Origin: Escherichia virus TH15
Sequence record: MT446392.1
Length of the DNA: 64,000 nt
Reading direction: 5' to 3' (one strand)
Shown here in pieces: positions 1 through 58,365 of this stretch. The number at the start of each line of letters is the position of its first letter. Within the stretch, counting starts at the first letter, position 1. The position numbers and the translations under genes are program-made. The notes under the pieces were generated by a model. The model ran no database searches, was not told where the DNA came from, and worked only from the letters and a program-made list of their open reading frames with translations.

Positions 1-43
1 ATAAAATAGATGAAGTAACCCATATTACAGAGACTGTATATAA

Positions 44-904
44 ATGAAAAATTATCAAGACTTGATTCAAACTGTATTTGACATTGGCTATCAGACTGAC
101 GACCGCACAGGGACTGGTACTATCGCGACATTTGGCACCAAAGTTGAGTGGGACATGTCTGAAGGCTTCCCTGCAACGACCGTTAAACGTTTGGCATACA
201 AATCTGTGGTTGGTGAGCTTCTGTGGTTCCTGGAAGGTTCTACGAACGTTGAACGTCTTCGTGAAATTACTCATGGCCCTGACTCTGATAAAAAGACTAT
301 CTGGGACCAGAACTTTGAAGCCCAAGGTCGTGCATTAGGTTATGTTGATGGCGAACTGGGTCCAGTATATGGTAAACAGTGGCGCGATTTTGGTGGGGTT
401 GACCAGCTGGTTGAGACCATCGAAAAGGTTAAGAAAGTTCCGACCGACCGTCGTCAGATTGTGTCCGCATGGAACCCGGCTGAACTGAAACAAATGGCTT
501 TGCCTCCTTGTCATCTGCTTTACCAGTTTAACGTACACGATGGTGAACTTGACCTGTTATGGTATCAACGTTCGGTTGATGTATTCCTGGGGCTTCCGTT
601 TGACATTGGTTCTTATGGTACGCTTTTACATATCGTTGCTAAAATGACTAGACTTAAGCCTGGTAAGTTGGTATTCATGGGTGGTAACACGCATATCTAT
701 CTTAACCATATCGAGCAATGCAAAGAAGTTCTTCGTCGTGAACCTAAGACTTTACCAACTCTGAAAATCAATTGGCCAGAGCAATTCCAGCAGTGGGACA
801 CGGAAATGCAGTTATATTGGGTGACTCGTCATATGTCTCCGGGTGATTTTGTTCTGGAAAACTATGAGCCACATCCGACAATCCCAGCACCGATGGCGGT
901 ATAA
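44..904 (+). CDS. td: thymidylate synthase, uninterrupted (no group I intron)
   Basis: 286-aa ORF, same length as T4 Td as recalled; ThyA-type sequence (PPCH..QFNV, DLLWYQRS); ATG at 44. Confidence 0.93.
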   Translation: MKNYQDLIQTVFDIGYQTDDRTGTGTIATFGTKVEWDMSEGFPATTVKRLAYKSVVGELLWFLEGSTNVERLREITHGPDSDKKTIWDQNFEAQGRALGYVDGELGPVYGKQWRDFGGVDQLVETIEKVKKVPTDRRQIVSAWNPAELKQMALPPCHLLYQFNVHDGELDLLWYQRSVDVFLGLPFDIGSYGTLLHIVAKMTRLKPGKLVFMGGNTHIYLNHIEQCKEVLRREPKTLPTLKINWPEQFQQWDTEMQLYWVTRHMSPGDFVLENYEPHPTIPAPMAV

Positions 905-1172: not shown

Positions 1173-1468
1173 AAGCCTGTCGGGTTGTTAACAAATATCA
1201 ATCCGACTTTGATGTGAATATTCAACGGGGTACCATGTGGGGAAACCCATATAAAGATGGTACCCGAGAAGAAAACATAAAGAACTTTAAAGAATATTTC
1301 ATATCAAAGATTAAATCGGGTGAAATCAAAAGAGAACACCTTGAAACCCTACGCGGAATGCGATTGGCCTGTACATGCAAACCAAAAGCATGCCATGGCG
1401 ATGTTATCGCCCTGGTCGTTAACAAACTTTTCAAAGATACCTTTTCGCTCGAGGATTTGGGAGCATAA
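1169..1468 (+). CDS. DUF4326-like protein
   Basis: 99-aa ORF with GNPY...ACTCKPKACHGDVI motif typical of DUF4326. Confidence 0.55.
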   Translation: MKACRVVNKYQSDFDVNIQRGTMWGNPYKDGTREENIKNFKEYFISKIKSGEIKREHLETLRGMRLACTCKPKACHGDVIALVVNKLFKDTFSLEDLGA

Positions 1469-1527
1469 ATACGATTCCGCTTCAGGGCACTGTGATATAA
1501 TTATTTAAAATTTAATGAGAGGAAATT

Positions 1528-1773
1528 ATGAATTTACGATTTAAACGCCAGACTGGCGAAGTCATTTTTGAAATGCTGCAATTTACCGAACAGGATTTAC
1601 CGGCACCAAATTCTTATATCACTATTGACGGAATCAAATTTCTGGCCAAACGTCATGAACGTGTCTACTGTCATGATTCAGCCGGTGACGTCCAGTCATA
1701 TTTTGACATCACCATCCAGTCAGAAGAAGAATATAATGATGAAATGTCTTCGGAACTGCCAGAGTCAATTTAA
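1528..1773 (+). CDS. hypothetical protein, 81 aa
   Basis: ORF with GAGAGGA RBS 6 nt upstream of ATG. Confidence 0.55.
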   Translation: MNLRFKRQTGEVIFEMLQFTEQDLPAPNSYITIDGIKFLAKRHERVYCHDSAGDVQSYFDITIQSEEEYNDEMSSELPESI

Positions 1774-1806
1774 GGTTCCCAACCCTTTTGAACTATAGAG
1801 GAAAAC

Positions 1807-4062
1807 ATGCAAGTACAAAAAAGTAGTGGTGTCTCTCAAGATTTTGATGGCCAGAAAATTATTAAAGTTCTTTCCTGGTCATGTGAAGGAACTAATATCG
1901 ACCCGTATGAATTATACGAAACAATCAAACCACATCTGCGCGATGGTATGACTACCCGCGATATTCAGACGGTTATCATCAAAGTGTCTGCTGGGCTTAT
2001 TTCGGTCGAAGAACCGGATTATCAATATGTTGCAGCGAAGGCTACGATGTTTGCTCTGCGTAAAGATGTTTATGGGCAATTCGAGCCACGTTCTTTTATT
2101 GACCAGATTTCTTATTGTGTTAATGAAGGCAAATATGACCCGGAACTGTTGTCAAGCTACTCCGCCGAAGAGATTACTTATCTGGAATCTCGTATCAAGC
2201 ACGAACGCGATTTTGACCTGACTTATGCAGGCGCGATGCAGTTGAAAGAGAAATACCTGGTTAAAGATAAAACCACTGGTAAAATCTACGAGACTCCACA
2301 ATTCGCTATCATGGCTATCGGCATGGCACTGTACCAGGATGAACCAACGGACCGTCTGAAGCACATTTGCCGTTTTTATGATGCAGTATCCACAAGACAG
2401 GTTTCGTTGCCCACACCTATCATGGCGGGCGCCAGAACACCCACCAGGCAGTTCAGTTCCTGCGTGGTTATCGAAGCTGCAGACTCCCTGAAGTCAATCA
2501 ATAAGACTGCCAATTCAATCATCGAATATATCAGTAAGCGTGCGGGTATCGGCATCAACGTTGGTATGATTCGTGCTGAAGGTTCGAAAATCGGTATGGG
2601 TGAAGTTCGTCATACTGGTGTTATTCCGTTCTGGAAACATTTCCAAACGGCTGTTAAATCCTGTTCACAAGGTGGAATCCGTGGCGGCGCTGCTACTGCT
2701 TATTATCCTTTATGGCATTTGGAAGTTGAAAATTTACTCGTTCTGAAGAACAACAAGGGCGTTGAAGAAAACCGCATCAGACATATGGACTATGGTGTCC
2801 AGTTGAATAACATGATGATGGAACGTCTGGCTAAGAATGATTACATCACTCTGTTTAGTCCACATGAAGCTGGTGGTGAATTGTATTATTCATATTTTGA
2901 TAACCCGGATAAATTCCGCGAGTTATATGAAGCCTTAGAAAAAGACCCGACAGTTCGTAAGAAACGTATCAAAGCAAAAGACCTGTTCGAATTATTCATG
3001 ACCGAACGTTCCGGCACTGCCCGAGTTTATCCACAGTTCGTTGATAACGTGAATGACTATACTCCGTTCATCCGCGATAAGGCTCCGATTCGTCAATCAA
3101 ACCTTTGTTGTGAAATTGCAATCCCGACTACTGATGTAAACAGCGAAGATGCTGAAATCGGATTGTGCACATTGTCTGCATTTGTTCTGGATAGTTTTGA
3201 CTGGCAGGACCAAGATAAGATTAACGAGCTGGCTGAAGTTCAAGTTCGTGCTCTTGATAATCTGTTGGACTACCAAGGTTATCCGGTTAAAGAAGCTCTG
3301 AAAGCCAAAAAACGTCGCAACTTGGGCGTTGGTGTTACCAACTACGCTGCATGGCTGGCAAGCAATTTCGCTTCCTACGCCGATGCAAACGATTTAACCC
3401 ATGAATTATTTGAGAGATTACAATATGGCCTTATCCGAGCATCCATCAAGCTCGCCAAAGAAAAAGGACCTTGCGAATATTATTCAGACACTCGTTGGGC
3501 TCGAGGCGAATTACCTATCGACTGGTACAATAAAAAGATTGACCAAATCGCAGCTCCAAACTACGTTTGTGACTGGGCGCAGCTGCGGGAAGACCTGGTT
3601 GCACATGGCATCCGTAATAGCACCTTATCTGCGCTCATGCCTTGCGAGTCGAGCAGCCAAGTTTCAAATAGTACCAACGGTATCGAACCTCCGCGTGGTC
3701 CAGTAAGTATTAAGGAAAGTAAAGAAGGTTCCTTTAACCAGGTTGTTCCAAATATCGAGCATAATAAAGGATTGTACGATTACGCATGGGTACTGGCTAA
3801 ACAAGGTAATAAACCTTATCTGACTCAAGTCGCGATTATGTTGAAATGGATTTGTCAGTCAGCATCAGCAAACACTTATTATGACCCGCAGAATTATCCG
3901 AAAGGAAAAGTTCCGATGTCAGTTATGCTTGACGACTTGATGTACGGTTGGTATTATGGAATCAAGAATTTTTACTATCACAATACTCGTGATGGCTCGG
4001 GAACTGACGATTACGAATTGGAAATGCCAAAAGCTGATGATTGCTCGGCATGTAAACTGTAA
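1807..4062 (+). CDS. nrdA: ribonucleotide reductase large subunit
   Basis: 751-aa ORF (T4 NrdA is about 754 aa); RBS GAGGAAAA; position after td. Confidence 0.93.
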   Translation: MQVQKSSGVSQDFDGQKIIKVLSWSCEGTNIDPYELYETIKPHLRDGMTTRDIQTVIIKVSAGLISVEEPDYQYVAAKATMFALRKDVYGQFEPRSFIDQISYCVNEGKYDPELLSSYSAEEITYLESRIKHERDFDLTYAGAMQLKEKYLVKDKTTGKIYETPQFAIMAIGMALYQDEPTDRLKHICRFYDAVSTRQVSLPTPIMAGARTPTRQFSSCVVIEAADSLKSINKTANSIIEYISKRAGIGINVGMIRAEGSKIGMGEVRHTGVIPFWKHFQTAVKSCSQGGIRGGAATAYYPLWHLEVENLLVLKNNKGVEENRIRHMDYGVQLNNMMMERLAKNDYITLFSPHEAGGELYYSYFDNPDKFRELYEALEKDPTVRKKRIKAKDLFELFMTERSGTARVYPQFVDNVNDYTPFIRDKAPIRQSNLCCEIAIPTTDVNSEDAEIGLCTLSAFVLDSFDWQDQDKINELAEVQVRALDNLLDYQGYPVKEALKAKKRRNLGVGVTNYAAWLASNFASYADANDLTHELFERLQYGLIRASIKLAKEKGPCEYYSDTRWARGELPIDWYNKKIDQIAAPNYVCDWAQLREDLVAHGIRNSTLSALMPCESSSQVSNSTNGIEPPRGPVSIKESKEGSFNQVVPNIEHNKGLYDYAWVLAKQGNKPYLTQVAIMLKWICQSASANTYYDPQNYPKGKVPMSVMLDDLMYGWYYGIKNFYYHNTRDGSGTDDYELEMPKADDCSACKL

Positions 4063-4790
4063 TGAATTATCAAAACATTTATAATAATTTAATATCCCGG
4101 GGTAAAACCCGGGAACCTTTAGCCGAATATAAAGAGATTCATCATATTATCCCAAGATGTATGGGTGGTACTGATGAAAAGACAAACCTTGTCGAGTTAA
4201 CAGCTCGAGAACATTTTATTGCTCATTTACTTTTATGCAAAATAAATCCCGGTCATTTTGGATTAGTCTCGGCCCTAACTTTAATGGCAACAGATAAAGC
4301 TGGAAATCGTATTAATAATAAATTGTATAGTTTCCATCGAAAGCTATTTGCCAAAGCAAATTCCGAATTCTTTAAGGAACACTGGAAAAATAACCCACAC
4401 CCCCGCGGTATGTTGGGTAAGCATCACAGTGAAGAATCTAAACAAATTGTAAGCGAAAAGAATAAGTTAGCTGTTCCATCTACAGAAATTTATCAATTTA
4501 CTCTCGATGGTGAATTTGTTGAAAAATTTAGGTCATTACAAGAGGCGGCGAGGACTGTAAATGGAAACGCGTCAAACATCAAGTATTGTGCAAGTGGAAA
4601 ATTTCAATATGCGTATGGATTTAGATGGTCATATTCGCTTCAACCCACATTTGATAAAATAACTCCACGACAATATAAAGGTGCCCGTGGTAAAATCTGT
4701 ATTAATGACGGGTTTACAAATAAATTAATTGAATCCTCTGAAATTATCCCCGATGGATGGGTCAGAGGAAGGATAAAGGTTAATAAATGA
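4062..4790 (+). CDS. mobE: freestanding HNH homing endonuclease, MobE-like
   Basis: 242-aa ORF with HHIIPRCMGG...N...H HNH motif; sits between nrdA and nrdB as mobE does in T4; start and stop overlap neighbours (ATGA). Confidence 0.75.
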   Translation: MNYQNIYNNLISRGKTREPLAEYKEIHHIIPRCMGGTDEKTNLVELTAREHFIAHLLLCKINPGHFGLVSALTLMATDKAGNRINNKLYSFHRKLFAKANSEFFKEHWKNNPHPRGMLGKHHSEESKQIVSEKNKLAVPSTEIYQFTLDGEFVEKFRSLQEAARTVNGNASNIKYCASGKFQYAYGFRWSYSLQPTFDKITPRQYKGARGKICINDGFTNKLIESSEIIPDGWVRGRIKVNK

Positions 4791-5965
4791 GTACAGTTTT
4801 TAACACCAAACAAGTCGATGTTTTGGAGGAGCCGATGTTCTTCGGTTCCGGATTGGGCATCGCCCGTTATGATATCCAACGTCATAAGGTATTTGAAGAA
4901 CTTACTGAAAAATCCCTCTCATTTTTCTGGCGGCCAGAGGAAGTCAACCTGATGATGGATGGAGCCCAATTTAATAAGCTTCCTGAACATCAACAAAATA
5001 TTTTTACCAACAACCTGAAATACCAATCACTTCTGGATAGTATCCAGGGTCGTGCTCCAGCTGCAGCATTAGCCGCATTAGTTTCCGACCCAAGTCTTGA
5101 TACATGGATTCAGACCTGGACATTCAGCGAGACAATTCACTCTCGTTCTTATACGCACATAATGCGAAATCTCTATACGGACCCGGCGAAGGTATTCGAC
5201 GAAATCCTGTTAGATGATGCAATTATGAAGCGCGCAGAATCTATCGGTCATTACTATGATGATGTTCTGAATAAAACTCGTCAATGGCAAAACCAGATTG
5301 CTTTTGTTGAACTGGCCAAAGAAACTCCCGAAGCGGACGAACGTTTGGAACGAGCTATCAAACAAGAAGCTATTGCCAAACGAGCATTGATGAAGTCTCT
5401 TTATCTCTGTCTGCACGTTATTAACGCCCTGGAAGCTATTCGTTTTTATGTATCTTTTGCTTGTACTTTCAACTTCCATAAAAACATGGAAATCATGGAA
5501 GGTAATGCGAAGATAATGAAGTTCATCGCCCGTGATGAACAGCTCCACCTTAAGGGGACCCAATATATTCTTCGTCAGTTGCAGACTGGCACCGACGGTG
5601 ACGAATGGGTTAAAATTGCTCAAGAATGTGAAGCAGAAGCCGCAGCTATTTTCATGGAAGTTAATCGCCAGGAAAAAGAATGGGCCGTGCATCTGTTTAA
5701 AGATGGTGGACTCCCTGGGCTGAGCGTCGAGATTCTTAACCGGTTCATCGATTACCTGACAGTTTCTCGTATGAAGCAATGCGGTCTCCCTTGTGAAATC
5801 GTGTTAGAATCTACTAAGCACCCGATTCCATGGATTCGCGAATATCTCAATTCTGATAATGTGCAATCAGCACCACAAGAAGTTGAGTTGTCCGCTTACC
5901 TGGTAGCCCAGATTGACAATGACGTCGATGAGAATGTTCTTGCTGGTTTCCGTAAATATCTATAA
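4787..5965 (+). CDS. nrdB: ribonucleotide reductase small subunit, uninterrupted
   Basis: 392-aa ORF; diiron R2-type sequence; no intron or I-TevIII-like insert. Confidence 0.93.
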   Translation: MSTVFNTKQVDVLEEPMFFGSGLGIARYDIQRHKVFEELTEKSLSFFWRPEEVNLMMDGAQFNKLPEHQQNIFTNNLKYQSLLDSIQGRAPAAALAALVSDPSLDTWIQTWTFSETIHSRSYTHIMRNLYTDPAKVFDEILLDDAIMKRAESIGHYYDDVLNKTRQWQNQIAFVELAKETPEADERLERAIKQEAIAKRALMKSLYLCLHVINALEAIRFYVSFACTFNFHKNMEIMEGNAKIMKFIARDEQLHLKGTQYILRQLQTGTDGDEWVKIAQECEAEAAAIFMEVNRQEKEWAVHLFKDGGLPGLSVEILNRFIDYLTVSRMKQCGLPCEIVLESTKHPIPWIREYLNSDNVQSAPQEVELSAYLVAQIDNDVDENVLAGFRKYL

Positions 5966-52341: not shown

Positions 52342-53127
52342 TTATTCATCAAAGAAACTATCGTCAAAGCTATCCTGTTTTGCCTTAGGCGGTGACTCGA
52401 GCCCTCGTCCATTCTGCACAAAATATGGTTTAACATATTCAGCTGCTTCTGCATTAATCTCATCAGATTCTGCATAAGGGATATCACTGATATCTGTAAG
52501 GCCATCGATATTGTGGATTGGTTGCAAATCGAGCTCACTGAATTCTGGAATATTAATACCTTCATTTCGTTGCAATTCAGGTTTAAGCTCTTCTCCGGAG
52601 TAAATGTATTTGCTCGCGGTGATTTTACGGATGGCGTTTTGACCTACCTGATAGAACGGGTCATAAGGCTGTACCCAGGTTATTTCGAACAGACTGTTAT
52701 CGAGAGGGAAATAAATCAAATCCCCTGCAATAGGTTCGGTGCCGTTGCATTGATGTTTAAACAGATTAGGGTTAATCGACACTGTGATTTCATCATTCAC
52801 AGTCATACCAAATTTACTGAAGATGGAACCATCACCCTGATAAGCATCGAACGTATCCAGATAACCAGCAAATTTCCATGCTTTATCAAATTTGCTCTGG
52901 AGGTCTTCGCCGAATAACAAATCTGGTTTAACGAATTGTCTTGGGATGTAATAGAGAGACATTCCGCGCATCTGAATACTTTCAGCAACAATAGCATCGG
53001 CTAAAGTCTGGGTATTTTCATGATGCATAAAGTTTACATAAGGGTTCAATATCTCTGTGGCATTGGTATTGTCATACCCGGTCCCGTCTTCGAGCCGGGC
53101 GAATAAGTTCGCGTCATATGTAGCCAT
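52342..53127 (-). CDS. 14: neck protein
   Basis: 261-aa ORF (T4 gp14 256 aa); synteny. Confidence 0.85.
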
Positions 53128-54065
53128 TAGCCCACCAATATAGGAGTCGGTGCATCCAGCAGGTCAAGTTCTTCGCGGAGACGTTCTTTTTCCATACGAG
53201 CTTCTTCGATTAAACGAACACCATCGACCGTAACTCCACCTGGCATCATCATCCCTTGGTGTTTAGCCAATACGTTGCCGTTAACTTCCTTAACAAGCGC
53301 CGTGGCATAGTCTTTCACCCAACGGTTGTTATATGCACCATCTTGAAGCCCAAGGTCCTCGCCAGCTCTCATACCGCTTATTCTGCGTGCCGGGTTATCC
53401 CACTGTGCACCGGCATTCCACGGATTATCACAATCAGCCGAGGTAAAACCATAACCAGCTGTATTGCCAACCATTGAATCCACACCGTTATATGATTTGG
53501 TATAAACTTCAATTACAATCACATCCCCTTGACGGAAGTTGCCCATAATTTTAAGTTGTTCGGTATCATCGTTATACCAGTAATCCGGAAGCGGAACCAT
53601 CAGGTCTTGCATCATCGAACGATATTGCATAAGCTGTGTAAAATAACCAAGGTCTGCACCAAAGGCATTTGGACCAAAGCTATTACATGAGCTACCCATC
53701 CCACCGTTAATCCCGGCAAGTCCCAGAACGAAATCTGTAAACCATGGATATGTGGCTTGCCCGTCCATTGAAGTTAATGAACCGACGTTAGTACGAATAA
53801 TCTGCGTTACTGCAAAAATATTACGTCCTTTTAAATCGAAAACACCATCGCGGAATTTCTGTTGTGAAACTTCATCATGACCGATATAAAAAGCCTGATA
53901 ACCTTTGTTATATCCATTATAATGATATTCACCGTATAATTCTAATGCACGCTGGATGCAATCATAGACTTGGTCGGTCGTAACTTCGATATTCGTGATT
54001 GGAGCACCAAGACGACGAAGGATTGCATCTTTTAATTGTTTCGGGTTGTATGATTCAGTTGCCAT
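53127..54065 (-). CDS. 13: neck protein
   Basis: 312-aa ORF (T4 gp13 309 aa); late promoter TATAAATA on - strand at 54085-54092. Confidence 0.85.
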
Positions 54066-54093
54066 ATGTTTTCCTCTTTACTGTATTTATACG

Positions 54094-54116
54094 AAAAAAG
54101 GGCCGAAGCCCTTTTG
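54094..54116 (-). terminator. rho-independent terminator after wac (GGGCUUCGGCCC on - strand)
   Basis: Same hairpin as at 5971-5982 and 19510-19521, here in reverse orientation with U-run on - strand. Confidence 0.7.
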
Positions 54117-56141
54117 TTATGGTCCAACAGTCACGAATGTAGACAAAAGAACCCATGCATTATCAACAAGCACGTAAGGGAGACCATCAGCCGCAGGAGC
54201 GACAGGAGGCCTTTTGGTGAGCTCTGTTTCCAAGGCTGATACTTTACCTTCCAAAGTAGTTATCTTCGTCTCGGCTGCATCCAGGCGACCAGGGAGCGGA
54301 GTTACTGTACCTTCAAGAGTTGTCACACGATCAGTTAACGGTGTAATTTTTGCAGTATCGAGTTTAATTGCAGTGATTTCCCCTTCCGCCGAAGTCATTC
54401 GACCGGTCAAGGTTACCAAACCGCCTTTGTTTGTTTCGATATTTGCTTTAATGGTAACCAGCTCACCTTCAACATTGCTAACGTCTAAAGCTAAAGCAGT
54501 GACATCATCATCGGTCGTAGATGTTTTAGTTTCCAATGCGGTTATTTTACCATCAACAGTCGTATCCTTCGTTTCTAATGCAGTAATTCGACCATCTTGT
54601 TCCGTATCTTTATTTTGCAGAGCGAGAACATCTGCCTTAATATTCGTAACGGAAGTGTTCAATGCACCATAACGAGTATCTAACGAACTGATTGCCGTAT
54701 CATTATCATCGACACGACCAGTTAATGTTGTTACGCGTCCATCAGTTGTTACCAATGAAGCTTTAACTGCATCAACTTCGGTTGTGGAATCGATAATTTC
54801 AGACCAGGCACCTTGCTTGCGACCGTATAACTTGTTGTCCAATGGCGCATCGTTCAACTTGGATGCCATCAACATATCCAAGTTAATTACGACTGGAAGA
54901 ACACCACGTTCAGCCACAGTAGCACCGTTAGGGTTAGTCCCGTTCATCTGGCTAGTTAAAGTCAAAATAGAACCTTTCATACCAGTGCTATTTGTACCAA
55001 TTTCAGCCTGCACATCCTGAAGACCTGATGCAGTTTCATTAGCCAGCGTAGTGGTTGCATTCAACTTATACGTGATGGTGTTTGGCTCCGGAGATTGCTC
55101 TGTACCGATTCTCTGAGAAAGCCATGCAGTGGTCCCGCGTAAACCGGAGCTTGAATCCTGACCAACAACAGCCTGCAATCCATTAACATCCGAGCGCAAA
55201 GCACTGATTCGACCATTAATTGTTAATGGTTCCAGAGCGGTGCCGATATCAGCTTCGACCTTAGTAAGTCTTGGTTTGATATTCGCAATATCTGTTTCAT
55301 TGACCGAAACACGCCCACCAAGATTTTCAACGCGAGTTGTAATTGCAAGCCCGGTACCAAAACCGATAGCTTCTTGAATATTGGTAATATCTTCGTCAAT
55401 TTCGACTACTTTGTCATCAAGAGTATTCAGTCGAACAAATACAGCCGGTTTACCTACTGCTAAAGTCGACTCACCCAATTCTTCGCGAATTTTAATTACT
55501 TTTACGTTAAGAGAACCAACATCAGAATCATGGTAATTATCCTCAAGAGTCTTAATACGAACTCCATGGGCAACAATAGCCGAACTGTTATCGAGGATAC
55601 GACGTTTCATGCCTTTTGACGGATTACCAATAACCTGTAGACCATTTATATCCTGGTCAACATACTGACCCAATTCATTTTTAATCCATACAAGGTCATT
55701 ACGAACTGTGCGATAATACGAATCGGTTAACGGGTCATAAACACCAACATCTTCTTTTAACTTTGTAAGACCTTCGGATGTTTCGCTTGACAGCAATTCG
55801 GTATTAAATTGACGTTCATCAAGGTCAAGAATATCCGTACGGTTTTTTTCAATTTGCTTAACAACTTCCGTGTTAGTTGTTATATCCAAAGCTTCCTGGA
55901 TATTATTGACGTTATCAATAATTTCATTGATTTTTTCTTTAGATGTATTTGAGTTGTCGTCGAGTGTATCTACGTTTATTTGAACGCCAACCGCGGCGGC
56001 GTTCAAATTACCATCATGACCATATTTGGTACTGGCCGCAGTCATACAATCGCCGTTTTGTATCCAACGAATTCTCTGTTGACCTTCGTCTGGAATACCG
56101 ATGCTATACGGCAGTTCTTTGAGACTGAGTTTATTAATCAT
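54117..56141 (-). CDS. wac: fibritin (whisker / neck fibre), extended coiled coil
   Basis: 674-aa ORF; heptad-repeat-rich; C-terminal foldon-like ...PYVLVDNAWVLLSTFV; T4 fibritin is 487 aa. Confidence 0.85.
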   Translation of the reverse strand: MINKLSLKELPYSIGIPDEGQQRIRWIQNGDCMTAASTKYGHDGNLNAAAVGVQINVDTLDDNSNTSKEKINEIIDNVNNIQEALDITTNTEVVKQIEKNRTDILDLDERQFNTELLSSETSEGLTKLKEDVGVYDPLTDSYYRTVRNDLVWIKNELGQYVDQDINGLQVIGNPSKGMKRRILDNSSAIVAHGVRIKTLEDNYHDSDVGSLNVKVIKIREELGESTLAVGKPAVFVRLNTLDDKVVEIDEDITNIQEAIGFGTGLAITTRVENLGGRVSVNETDIANIKPRLTKVEADIGTALEPLTINGRISALRSDVNGLQAVVGQDSSSGLRGTTAWLSQRIGTEQSPEPNTITYKLNATTTLANETASGLQDVQAEIGTNSTGMKGSILTLTSQMNGTNPNGATVAERGVLPVVINLDMLMASKLNDAPLDNKLYGRKQGAWSEIIDSTTEVDAVKASLVTTDGRVTTLTGRVDDNDTAISSLDTRYGALNTSVTNIKADVLALQNKDTEQDGRITALETKDTTVDGKITALETKTSTTDDDVTALALDVSNVEGELVTIKANIETNKGGLVTLTGRMTSAEGEITAIKLDTAKITPLTDRVTTLEGTVTPLPGRLDAAETKITTLEGKVSALETELTKRPPVAPAADGLPYVLVDNAWVLLSTFVTVGP

Positions 56142-56149
56142 TTTGGTCC

Positions 56150-57700
56150 TTAATAGTGAACTTTAATAATATAGTTTAAAGACATATTCCAAGGTCTTGT
56201 TTCATATCCGATAAGGCCTTCACGGTTTAACGTTCCGAGAGAATCACGACCACCACCTAATTCAAATCCATCATTTGTGAAATACGAAGCATTATCCCAG
56301 TCTGAATATTTTCTGGTACCAAGATAACCTTGATAAACTGACGCACCAAATGGAGCTTCATTGCGTTGATATTCGCCCCAACCTCCGGCGTGTTTGTGAT
56401 AAGACATCTGCTGAGCTTGTACACCACCGACCCAAGAACCATCACAACCAACACCCAAGCGGTCTTTACCATAACCATCTTGACCCCGGTTATTCAGAAT
56501 ATGACCGCCTGTACCTGCGCCACGAACGAATAAGCCGCGCATATCAGGAACGCCAGGGTTATTCCAGTCACCACCAAAACGAGCCCCAACAGTATTTCGA
56601 TAGTCAGGGAATTGGTCGCCATTAACAGTACCACCATGACACATAATCCAACCAGGAGGAGCGCTATCACCTGCAAACATCATCACGGTTCCGACAGGAA
56701 CACGTTCGGAAGCATAACGCTGTGTAGAAAGTAATTGACCGCCCATATGAGCCGTAGTGGAGTCAAAATTGCCAGTGGAAATATAATCTAAAGAAAGACT
56801 TCCATTAATTCGTTGACCACCTCGAGTGTTAATTACATCTGCGTTCCAAGCCAGGGCTCCAGCTCCATCACCACCAGGAGCAATCCCAGCCTGAGTAGTT
56901 AATCTAACGACGCCACGAATATCGGTTGTAGCACCACGACCATTAAGAGTTGCACCAGTTACCGCAACACCATCAGCACTGTTATTGATTTCTGACTGAT
57001 TACCCAGACGAATAATCCCTGCGCGGTCTTGTGTTGCTGTACGAGCATTTAAACCAGCCGGAGAAATCGCCACGCCGTCACCCAGAGTTCCTGCTTGTAC
57101 TTCAGCATTTGTAGCAATTCGCACTAAACCGGAAACAGTTTGTGTAGCAGTTGAATAAGTCGGAAGAGCGGCGGTTGCTTTACCAATTGCCAGAGCAACT
57201 TTCAACGGAGACATGGCGGTTGTGTCGTCTGTACCAGCTAAAGCTGCATCTTCGGTGCTAATACGAAGAACACCCAGATTATTTTCGGTACCGACACGAA
57301 CAGTAAAAACATCATCAATTGTTGCTTTTAATGAAGATGGAACAATAGCTGCATCGGTTACTGTCCCTGCTATTGCTTCGGCATTAGTTGCATAACGGGT
57401 AATACCTACATAAGTTTCGGTAGCTTGTGTAGGGATGTCTAAACGAGCTTTTAAGGTCGCCGGAGTAACAGCAGAGTCTGGACTAATACCATCAATAACT
57501 TCTTGTGTGGTGGCTAGTCTGATGAGTCCTGCGGTCGTTTCGGAAGAGGCTGGGATATATCCATCTAACGCAATTTTATTAAGAGACCCCAAAGCCTCTT
57601 GTACGTTGGTAACAGTCGACGGGAAAGCTGTTCCCGTCGGGTCGAATGTTTTATATTCGGATTTATCGCTAATGTGTTTTAGCGTGTTAGTCGTTGTCAT
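56150..57700 (-). CDS. 12: short tail fibre
   Basis: 516-aa ORF (T4 gp12 527 aa); C-terminal receptor-binding region resembles gp12. Confidence 0.88.
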   Translation of the reverse strand: MTTTNTLKHISDKSEYKTFDPTGTAFPSTVTNVQEALGSLNKIALDGYIPASSETTAGLIRLATTQEVIDGISPDSAVTPATLKARLDIPTQATETYVGITRYATNAEAIAGTVTDAAIVPSSLKATIDDVFTVRVGTENNLGVLRISTEDAALAGTDDTTAMSPLKVALAIGKATAALPTYSTATQTVSGLVRIATNAEVQAGTLGDGVAISPAGLNARTATQDRAGIIRLGNQSEINNSADGVAVTGATLNGRGATTDIRGVVRLTTQAGIAPGGDGAGALAWNADVINTRGGQRINGSLSLDYISTGNFDSTTAHMGGQLLSTQRYASERVPVGTVMMFAGDSAPPGWIMCHGGTVNGDQFPDYRNTVGARFGGDWNNPGVPDMRGLFVRGAGTGGHILNNRGQDGYGKDRLGVGCDGSWVGGVQAQQMSYHKHAGGWGEYQRNEAPFGASVYQGYLGTRKYSDWDNASYFTNDGFELGGGRDSLGTLNREGLIGYETRPWNMSLNYIIKVHY

Positions 57701-58365
57701 TACGATACTCGCTTATAATGGTAAAGTGAAATTGCGCCATTTGCTGTGCCACCGGATAATGTCTGGGTTGAAGTTCCAAGATATTCCCAGGAACCATAAC
57801 CACCACGCGGTTGCTGTGTAATAGTCTGGCTAAGCGTACAACCATATTGAGCGAAAGGCGCAAAATTATGGTTTTGATAGTCGTTATATGTAATATTTAA
57901 TATAGACTGGTCCACACTATCAATTGCAGAGCTTGACACGATTAAACTATCAGCAACAGCCGTCAACAAAGCATCGTTAACCTTGGAAGCGACCAATACA
58001 GCTGAATCCCCAACAATAACCTCAACAGGAATACCAAAAATGAAAAATAAAACAGTATCACCGACCCCGGCACCAGAAATAGACCCGGTGAATTTAATTT
58101 TATCCGACTGGCTGATTGCTGCCGGAGAAAGGTTATTTGTATTAGTAATTACACTACCAACCGGAAGCTCATATCGAAACGCAATATCATCTATTGCGCT
58201 CTGAACTGTTGGGTAAAAAATACCTTCGGTTGTCTGTGTTGCGGATGGCCCACCGATTGCTCGTTGGCCCATCACAGCCGTAATATTTTTTGATGTATTT
58301 TGAAATTCTAAGTAACTAGCATGGCGGGAAATTACTCCAGCCTTTTTATTCGTTAATGTTTTCAT
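57700..58365 (-). CDS. 11: baseplate wedge / short-fibre attachment protein
   Basis: 221-aa ORF (T4 gp11 219 aa); synteny. Confidence 0.85.
   Translation of the reverse strand: MKTLTNKKAGVISRHASYLEFQNTSKNITAVMGQRAIGGPSATQTTEGIFYPTVQSAIDDIAFRYELPVGSVITNTNNLSPAAISQSDKIKFTGSISGAGVGDTVLFFIFGIPVEVIVGDSAVLVASKVNDALLTAVADSLIVSSSAIDSVDQSILNITYNDYQNHNFAPFAQYGCTLSQTITQQPRGGYGSWEYLGTSTQTLSGGTANGAISLYHYKRVS

What the first reader, a model, noticed from the sequence alone, without database searches (positions are those of the whole stretch)
54117..56141. Fibritin about 190 residues longer than in T4
The wac ORF is 674 aa against 487 aa for T4 fibritin as I recall it. The extra length is in the central heptad-repeat region, while the N-terminal anchor and the C-terminal foldon-like end are retained. 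A longer coiled coil implies longer whiskers and possibly altered environmental sensing of tail-fibre deployment.
Basis: partly seen in the sequence, partly recalled or inferred. Interest (0 to 1): 0.3.

Follow-up and report, generated by a model that had tools for sequence, protein, structure and literature searches.

The report
Known two-foldon (JS98-type) long fibritin
This is the neck-whisker (fibritin) gene of a T4-like coliphage, in an already described long form: a T4-like fibritin ending in a foldon-like motif, then about 190 more residues of coiled coil capped by a second foldon. It is an ordinary member of a known variant.

Summary
The ORF is real: 54117..56141, minus strand, 674 aa, between genes 12 and 13. 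It is fibritin (PHROG 1056, E 2e-182).

The extra length is not in the central shaft. Residues 5-416 align colinearly with T4 residues 4-421. All the surplus lies in one C-proximal block. That block starts after an internal foldon-like beta-hairpin (432-449) and ends before the terminal foldon (646-671).

The block is coiled coil, not a globular insert. Residues 456-644 form 27 heptads in one unbroken register (0 of 5000 shuffles match), and AlphaFold2 predicts helix.

Letarov & Krisch 2013 (PMC3797505) already describe this architecture as the "JS98-type" fibritin: two T4-like foldon motifs separated by a coiled-coil spacer of variable length.

In 36 two-foldon fibritins sampled here the spacer runs from 35 to 319 aa; the window's is 199. 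Relatives 92-96% identical in DNA have fibritins of 541-789 aa. The differences are a 133-aa block and 1-6 copies of a 24-aa unit.

The exact 674-aa sequence is already public. A longer whisker is a reasonable inference. Altered sensing is untested, and the gp34-36 tail-fibre region stays 5811 nt in relatives while the spacer varies.

Low interest; already known.

The parts
54117..56141 (-). wac gene: JS98-type fibritin, 674 aa plus stop codon (54117-54119)
   Evidence: ORF; PHROG 1056 fibritin, E 2e-182; T4 fibritin 2bsg_A, E 1.3e-87; lies between the gp12-like and gp13-like ORFs
55992..56141 (-). Residues 1-50: conserved N-terminal neck/collar-binding domain
   Evidence: Residues 6-84 align to mini-fibritin 1ox3/2ibl, E 2e-14. 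Foldseek to 9mkb_A gives TMt 0.80, rmsd 1.9 A. Many invariant columns in alignments A1 and A2
54849..55991 (-). Residues 51-431: segmented coiled-coil shaft, colinear with the T4 shaft (5 residues shorter than in T4 up to residue 416)
   Evidence: Query 5-416 aligns to T4 4-421. AlphaFold2 gives 12 helices separated by loops. No single heptad register (best score 0.38)
54795..54848 (-). Residues 432-449 (APLDNKLYGRKQGAWSEI): internal foldon-like beta-hairpin ('foldon 1')
   Evidence: Pfam Fibritin_C profile positions 3-90 of 93 align to residues 369-449. 9/21 identical to the T4 foldon, E 7e-6. Predicted strands 439-442 and 445-448. Same position as the terminal foldon of the 455-459-aa fibritins. 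Described as one of two T4-like foldon motifs in PMC3797505
54207..54794 (-). Residues 450-645: inter-foldon coiled-coil spacer, the extra length relative to T4. Residues 456-644 are 27 heptads in one register
   Evidence: Position a is 63% and position d 78% hydrophobic, other positions 8%; 0 of 5000 shuffles reach this. Predicted helices 453-591, 596-612 and 618-642. Resembles trimeric viral fibre coiled coils (4lin_A, E 1.4e-8; reovirus sigma-1)
54369..54767 (-). Residues about 459-591: 133-aa (399-nt, 19-heptad) block present here, in VR26, TH44 and MN01 but absent from DK-13 and RZ
   Evidence: Alignment A1. The junction lies in the microhomology GATGCA(G/A)TTAAA
54300..54371 (-). Residues 591-614: the single copy of a 24-aa unit (AIKLDTAKIxPLTxRV...) that is repeated in relatives
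   Evidence: IKLDTAKI occurs once in the window and DK-13, 3 times in VR26, 4 in TH44 and 6 in MN01
54120..54206 (-). Residues 646-674: terminal foldon (PVAPAADGLPYVLVDNAWVLLSTFV) plus a 3-residue tail
   Evidence: 14/26 identical to the T4 foldon, E 4e-8. phmmer aligns query 603-671 to T4 420-485. Predicted strands 656-659 and 662-665 plus a short helix
54084..54115 (-). Terminator-like hairpin (AAAAGGGC-TTCG-GCCCTTTT plus a T-run, 54094-54115), followed by the late-promoter box TATAAATA (54084-54091) ahead of gene 13
   Evidence: Read directly from the sequence; TATAAATA match

Best explanation
The ORF is the wac gene of a Gaprivervirus-like T4-type coliphage and encodes a JS98-type fibritin.

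Shown by the evidence here:
- Residues 1-431 are a complete T4-like fibritin body: the N-terminal neck-binding domain plus a segmented coiled-coil shaft.
- This body ends in a foldon-like beta-hairpin (432-449), at the position where the shortest fibritins (455-459 aa) terminate.
- The chain then continues as about 190 residues of heptad-repeat sequence (27 heptads in one register, mostly one long predicted helix).
- A second foldon (646-671) closes the chain.
- The 187-aa excess over T4 is this inter-foldon module. T4's arrangement differs from it by a single deletion or duplication.
- Among close relatives the spacer length changes in blocks: a 19-heptad block bounded by 10-12 nt of microhomology, and 1-6 copies of a 24-aa unit. 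This points to recombination between repeated coiled-coil coding units.

Inferred, not shown:
- The spacer forms a parallel trimeric coiled coil.
- The terminal foldon nucleates trimerisation, as in T4 and JS98.
- The whisker is about 22-28 nm longer than T4's (about 0.148 nm rise per residue).
- It keeps the T4 roles of helping long-tail-fibre attachment and holding the fibres retracted.
For: - ORF and gene order.
- Fibritin family.
- Colinearity with T4 up to residue 416, and of residues 603-671 with the T4 C-end.
- Ten-sequence alignment placing all length differences between the two foldon motifs.
- Internal motif versus T4 foldon, E 7e-6; terminal motif versus T4 foldon, E 4e-8.
- The internal motif sits at residues 433-438 in 36 two-foldon fibritins, the same place as the terminal foldon of the 455-459-aa forms.
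- Heptad register test, 0 of 5000 shuffles.
- AlphaFold2 secondary structure (hairpin, long helix, hairpin).
- Indel junction and repeat copy numbers.
- Published description of the JS98-type two-foldon fibritin with a variable coiled-coil spacer and self-trimerisation: PMC3797505.
- Exact sequence present in public data, in a cluster with members of 541-789 aa.
Against: - The structure model is a monomer with a low global score (pTM 0.23, mean pLDDT 73). Trimeric parallel packing of the spacer is therefore inferred from the heptad pattern and from similarity to trimeric fibre coiled coils, not shown.
- Three heptads (512, 526, 540) have polar a positions. Prolines at 601, 615 and 617 probably break the coil near its C-end, so the physical extension may be shorter or more flexible than a rigid-rod estimate.
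- No experiment bears on whisker length or function for this phage or its genus.
- The internal motif gives no BLASTP alignment to the protein's own terminal foldon. A recent internal duplication is therefore not supported; the two motifs are old and diverged.
Confidence: 0.9

Rival explanations
1. One reading: a T4-type fibritin whose central heptad-repeat shaft has been expanded by about 190 residues.
For: Total length is 674 versus 487 aa. The surplus does have heptad character.
Against: Residues 5-416 are colinear with T4 4-421, with no net gain. All length differences in A1 lie after the internal foldon.
Confidence: 0.02
2. The distal module (spacer plus second foldon) was acquired horizontally from another phage fibre gene, such as a tail-needle gp26-like coiled coil. 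On this reading it did not arise inside wac by duplication, and T4 did not lose it by deletion.
For: The spacer alone matches tail needle gp26 4lin_A at E 1.4e-8, with weaker matches to other gp26 chains and to reovirus sigma-1. It also matches PHROG 1219 tail needle, E 7e-11. The internal and terminal foldons are too diverged for BLASTP to align.
Against: The matches are between low-complexity trimeric coiled coils sharing motifs such as L-x-G-R-V-T-x-x-E, with high bias scores, so they may be convergent. The window's last coil segment and foldon align with T4's own last segment and foldon. This fits the published view that the T4 and JS98 types differ by a single deletion or duplication.
Confidence: 0.12
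3. The internal foldon is the functional end of the whisker, serving as trimerisation nucleus and docking site for the long-tail-fibre knee at a fixed distance from the neck. The distal extension is then a free appendage with a different or additional role.
For: Foldon 1 sits at a nearly constant position (433-438), equal to the terminus of the shortest fibritins. The spacer varies from 66 to 312 aa among phages whose gp34-gp36 region is exactly 5811 nt.
Against: There are no functional data. [quoted passage not shown] That motif is very strongly conserved (ADGLPYVLVDNAWVLL in nearly all two-foldon forms), which suggests it is itself under functional constraint.
Confidence: 0.12
4. Artefact: a frameshift, misassembly or gene fusion creates an over-long ORF.
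For: None found.
Against: The same architecture occurs in many independently sequenced genomes (VR26, TH44, MN01, JS98, dhaeg). The identical 674-aa protein is on record from a 171,591-bp contig, and another 674-aa cluster member was seen on 7 contigs.
Confidence: 0.01

Closest known systems
JS98-type fibritin (Escherichia phage JS98 Wac, AAU29287.1, 751 aa; Letarov & Krisch 2013, PMC3797505)
   Same: The architecture matches: N-terminal domain, T4-like shaft, internal foldon at about residue 435, coiled-coil spacer, and terminal foldon ADGLPYVLVDNAWVLLS. The genome position between genes 12 and 13 is also the same.
   Different: Only about 49-52% identical overall. JS98's spacer is 271 aa against 199 here. 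JS98 belongs to a different genus (Dhakavirus).
Escherichia phage vB_EcoM_VR26 fibritin (AIZ02808.1, 722 aa; Gaprivervirus)
   Same: 91% (tblastn) to 97% (alignment A1) identical, with the same C-terminal tail TVGP and the same 133-aa block. It belongs to the same 90%-identity cluster.
   Different: VR26 has three copies of the 24-aa IKLDTAKI unit against one here, which makes it 48 aa longer.
T4 fibritin (gpwac, NP_049771.1, 487 aa; PDB 2bsg, 3j2o, 1aa0, 1avy, 1ox3)
   Same: The N-terminal domain, the shaft (T4 4-421 aligns to window 5-416), the last coil segment and the foldon all correspond.
   Different: T4 has a single foldon at residue 461 and no inter-foldon module. It is 38% identical overall.
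Short single-foldon fibritins (e.g. Pectobacterium phage PM2, 457 aa; Shewanella phage Thanatos-1, 466 aa)
   Same: They are colinear up to the foldon at about residue 435, which is where the window's internal foldon sits.
   Different: They stop there; the window protein continues for another 225 residues.
Trimeric viral fibre coiled coils (P22-like tail needle gp26, PDB 4lin, 2poh, 3c9i; reovirus sigma-1, 6gaj)
   Same: They share a heptad pattern rich in beta-branched residues, and motifs like L-x-G-R-V-T-x-x-E-G-x-I-x-A-L.
   Different: There is no shared terminal domain, the genome context differs, and the similarity may be convergent. Not treated here as homology.

Membership tests
Fibritin (gpwac) of T4-type phages | Conserved N-terminal domain of about 50 aa that attaches the fibre to the neck | tested here: met
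   Residues 6-84 align to 1ox3/2ibl, E 2e-14. Foldseek to 9mkb_A gives TMt 0.80, rmsd 1.9 A. Invariant columns in A1 and A2.
Fibritin (gpwac) of T4-type phages | Gene lies between gene 12 (short tail fibre) and gene 13 (neck protein) | tested here: met
   ORF order. The same order is annotated in T4, VR26, RZ, JS98 and VR7.
Fibritin (gpwac) of T4-type phages | Long shaft of coiled-coil segments interrupted by short loops | tested here: met
   Colinear with the T4 shaft. AlphaFold2 gives 12 helices with loops over residues 45-429. The coiled-coil state itself is inferred from a monomer model.
Fibritin (gpwac) of T4-type phages | Trimeric fibre present on the virion as collar and whiskers | not testable with these tools
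   Needs electron microscopy, mass spectrometry or biochemistry.
JS98-type fibritin (Letarov & Krisch 2013) | Two T4-like foldon motifs in one chain | tested here: met
   Internal motif at 432-449 (E 7e-6 versus the T4 foldon; Pfam Fibritin_C aligns through it). Terminal motif at 646-671 (E 4e-8). Both are predicted as beta-hairpins.
JS98-type fibritin (Letarov & Krisch 2013) | Spacer between the foldons has a coiled-coil pattern and varies in length | tested here: met
   27 heptads in one register, 0 of 5000 shuffles. Helix 453-591. Spacer of 35-319 aa across 36 proteins.
JS98-type fibritin (Letarov & Krisch 2013) | Folds into trimers on its own, without a dedicated chaperone gene downstream | tested here: inconclusive
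   No extra ORF lies between wac and gene 13; the gap is 51 nt and holds a hairpin and a late promoter, which is consistent with this feature. Self-trimerisation itself is not testable here.
P22-like tail needle gp26 | N-terminal portal-plug domain and gp26-type C-terminal domain flanking the coiled coil | tested here: not met
   Only the coiled-coil part matches (query 441-605 to 4lin 59-216). The termini are those of fibritin.

The most novel reading that the evidence does not exclude
The inter-foldon spacer may be a rapidly evolving length cassette. Among phages 92-96% identical in flanking DNA, with gp34-gp36 regions of identical length, it changes from 66 to 312 aa by in-frame, repeat-mediated indels. 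Foldon 1 meanwhile stays at a fixed distance from the neck. This could mean whisker reach is actively tuned, for example to set how readily tail fibres are released. It could also mean the part beyond foldon 1 has a separate role, such as transient surface contact or sensing, distinct from fibre docking.
Probability: 0.1. Interest if true: 0.4.

Novelty: already known. Interest (0 to 1): 0.12.

Why it matters
It matters little for discovery. The architecture was published in 2013, homologues of 515-799 aa are annotated as fibritin in GenBank, and the exact sequence is already public.

There are two minor points of value.
- It documents how the length varies within one genus: a 19-heptad block and 1-6 copies of a 24-aa unit, while the proximal long-tail-fibre genes keep a constant length.

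That natural series (fibritins of 541-543, 674, 722, 748 and 789 aa) would suit an experiment on whether whisker length affects tail-fibre retraction.

Tried and rejected
- A sliding-window Fourier analysis of hydrophobic periodicity did not discriminate. I replaced it with an explicit register test.
- Tandem Repeats Finder found no DNA tandem repeat in the gene.
- The repeat finder gave only short, weak direct repeats, the clearest being a 42-nt spacing that corresponds to the 14-aa DGRITALETK/DGKITALETK pair. The window's own spacer therefore shows no recent DNA-level duplication. The 24-aa unit repeated in relatives is single-copy here.
- BLASTP of the internal foldon against the protein's own terminal foldon gave nothing, so I dropped the idea of a recent internal duplication.
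- I asked whether indels generally preserve the heptad frame. Only the 133-aa block does (19 x 7). The 24-aa unit does not, and the other spacer differences are not multiples of 7, so I make no such claim.
- Literature searches for fibritin with VR26 or Gaprivervirus found nothing.
- The gp26 tail-needle similarity was considered as evidence of homology and set aside as probably compositional or convergent.
- Foldseek on the whole model mainly recovered T4 fibritin. The foldon hits were weak (E above 1), as expected for a peptide of about 25 residues.

Full report
**Observation.** An ATG-to-stop ORF of 674 aa lies at window 54117..56141 on the minus strand.
- It is flanked upstream by gp10-, gp11- and gp12-like ORFs, and downstream by gp13-, gp14-, gp15-, gp16- and gp17-like ORFs. 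This is the T4 order (T4 annotation).
- It matches the PHROG fibritin family at E 2e-182 and T4 fibritin chains 2bsg_A and 3j2o_A at about E 1e-87.
- T4 wac is 1464 nt, or 487 aa (the PDB chain is also 487 aa).

**Where the extra length is.**
- phmmer aligns window residues 5-416 colinearly with T4 residues 4-421, and window 603-671 with T4 420-485. The T4-equivalent shaft is in fact 5 residues shorter here.
- All surplus therefore lies in one block near the C-terminus.
- I aligned the window protein with VR26 (722 aa), TH44 (748), MN01 (789), DK-13 and RZ (543), VR7 (528), dhaeg (689), JS98 (751) and T4 (487). Every length difference falls in that same interval.
The statement that the N-terminal anchor and the C-terminal foldon are retained is right.

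**Anatomy of the surplus.**
- It begins with APLDNKLYGRKQGAWSEI (residues 432-449). Pfam's Fibritin_C profile aligns its positions 3-90 of 93 to residues 369-449, in the interior of the protein.
- BLASTP of this motif against the T4 foldon gives 9/21 identities, E 7e-6. The true C-terminus (PVAPAADGLPYVLVDNAWVLLSTFV) gives 14/26, E 4e-8.
- In fibritins of 455-459 aa, the single terminal foldon starts at residue 433-439. That is where the window's internal motif sits.
- Residues 456-644 form exactly 27 heptads in one unbroken register. Position a is 63% and position d 78% hydrophobic, against 8% elsewhere. The score is 0.70 versus 0.33 +/- 0.03 in shuffles, and none of 5000 shuffles reaches it. 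The T4-colinear shaft has no single register (0.38), as expected for a segmented coiled coil.
- AlphaFold2 with a 45-sequence alignment gives mean pLDDT 73 (monomer, pTM 0.23). It predicts helix 415-429, a beta-hairpin at 439-442/445-448, and one helix from 453 to 591 (block-mean pLDDT up to 96). Short breaks follow at 592-595 and 613-617, near prolines 601, 615 and 617. Then come helix 618-642 and a terminal hairpin at 656-659/662-665.
- The spacer alone resembles other trimeric viral fibre coiled coils (tail needle gp26 4lin_A at E 1.4e-8; reovirus sigma-1). I treat this as a shared coiled-coil pattern, not as demonstrated homology.

**What is known.** Letarov & Krisch 2013 (PMC3797505) describe exactly this arrangement as the JS98-type fibritin.
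[quoted passage not shown] - They report that the T4 and JS98 fibritins trimerise on their own using the foldon motifs.
- They also say it is unclear whether all variants keep T4's dual role in fibre attachment and environmental sensing.

**How ordinary it is.**
- The 120 best homologues listed, from a 5.8-billion-protein collection, range from 455 to 799 aa.
- Of 130 fibritins examined (those 120, nine phage records and the window), 36 have two foldon motifs. Their spacers range from 35 to 319 aa, and the window's 199 is mid-range.
- The exact 674-aa sequence is already in public data, on a 171,591-bp contig. Its 90%-identity cluster has 45 members, and the 15 listed span 541 to 789 aa.
- The closest phages are Gaprivervirus, with 92-96% nucleotide identity over the 5-kb neighbourhood.

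**How the length varies.**
- DK-13 and RZ lack a 399-nt block (133 aa, 19 heptads). Its junction lies in the microhomology GATGCA(G/A)TTAAA, between two related coil-coding stretches.
- A 24-aa unit (AIKLDTAKIAPLTxRVxxxExEIT) is present once here and in DK-13, three times in VR26, four times in TH44 and six times in MN01.
- The window gene itself has no DNA tandem repeat and only weak short direct repeats.
- This points to unequal or illegitimate recombination between repeated coiled-coil modules. That is an inference.

**Function.**
- Inferred from T4 knowledge (summarised): the protein trimerises from the C-terminal foldon, anchors to the neck through its N-terminal domain, assists long-tail-fibre attachment and holds the fibres retracted.
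- At about 0.148 nm per residue (textbook value), the added helices of 139, 17 and 25 residues amount to roughly 27 nm. T4's equivalent last segments give about 5 nm, so the whisker would be some 22-25 nm longer than T4's if the coil is rigid.
- Whether this alters sensing is untested.
- The gp34-gp36 region is exactly 5811 nt in RZ, DK-13 and UPEC01 (fibritin 541-543 aa), in TH44 (748) and in MN01 (789). It is 5868 nt in VR26. The length of the proximal fibre and hinge therefore does not track whisker length.
- This argues against tight geometric matching. It leaves open a flexible whisker, docking through the fixed-position internal foldon, or a separate role for the distal part.

**Verdict.** The feature is real and correctly identified as fibritin. 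The architecture is published and common among Dhakavirus and Gaprivervirus phages, and it occurs in other genera too (for example Enterobacter phage CIP9 and Serratia phage CHI14). Interest is low and the novelty class is 'already known'.

Noticed in passing
window 54084-54115 (-): Right after the wac stop codon there is a GC-rich hairpin (AAAAGGGC-TTCG-GCCCTTTT) with a T-run. A T4 late-promoter box, TATAAATA, follows 19 nt before the gene-13 ATG. wac therefore looks like the last gene of a 10-11-12-wac late transcription unit.
   Followed up: partly
whole window: TATAAATA occurs 19 times against 4.6 expected, and no shuffle out of 100 reaches 19. Sixteen of the matches are on the minus strand, the coding strand of the late structural genes.
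   Followed up: no
relatives: RZ (MW598459), DK-13, UPEC01, TH44, MN01, VR26 gp34-gp36 regions (L010:5326-11193 as query): The gp34-gp36 long-tail-fibre region is exactly 5811 nt in phages whose fibritins are 541-543, 748 and 789 aa, and 5868 nt in VR26. Fibre proximal and hinge length does not covary with whisker spacer length.
   Followed up: partly
relatives RZ, TH40, vB_YenM_P8, pEC-M719-6WT.2 (hits H53-H57): These relatives carry a homing endonuclease gene somewhere within the stretch matching window 53000-58000 (about 640 nt extra). The window has no such insertion.
   Followed up: no
L003 (DK-13) 250-1932; cluster members P0001, P0123, P0127, P0129: Several close homologues are annotated 15-17 aa longer (558-560 aa), from an upstream start inside gene 12. 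Alignment with T4 and VR26 supports the MINKL start used in the window ORF.
   Followed up: partly
window 54120-54131 (-), C-terminal tail of fibritin: After LSTFVT, the window and VR26 end with VGP, whereas the other aligned two-foldon fibritins end in LNPAP, LNPVP or LNSAP. VR26's megablast match over 53000-58000 covers only query positions 1326-5000 (window about 54325-57999) at 96.7% identity, with gene 13 and the 3' end of wac not matched in that place. This hints at local mosaicism at the 3' end of wac.
   Followed up: no
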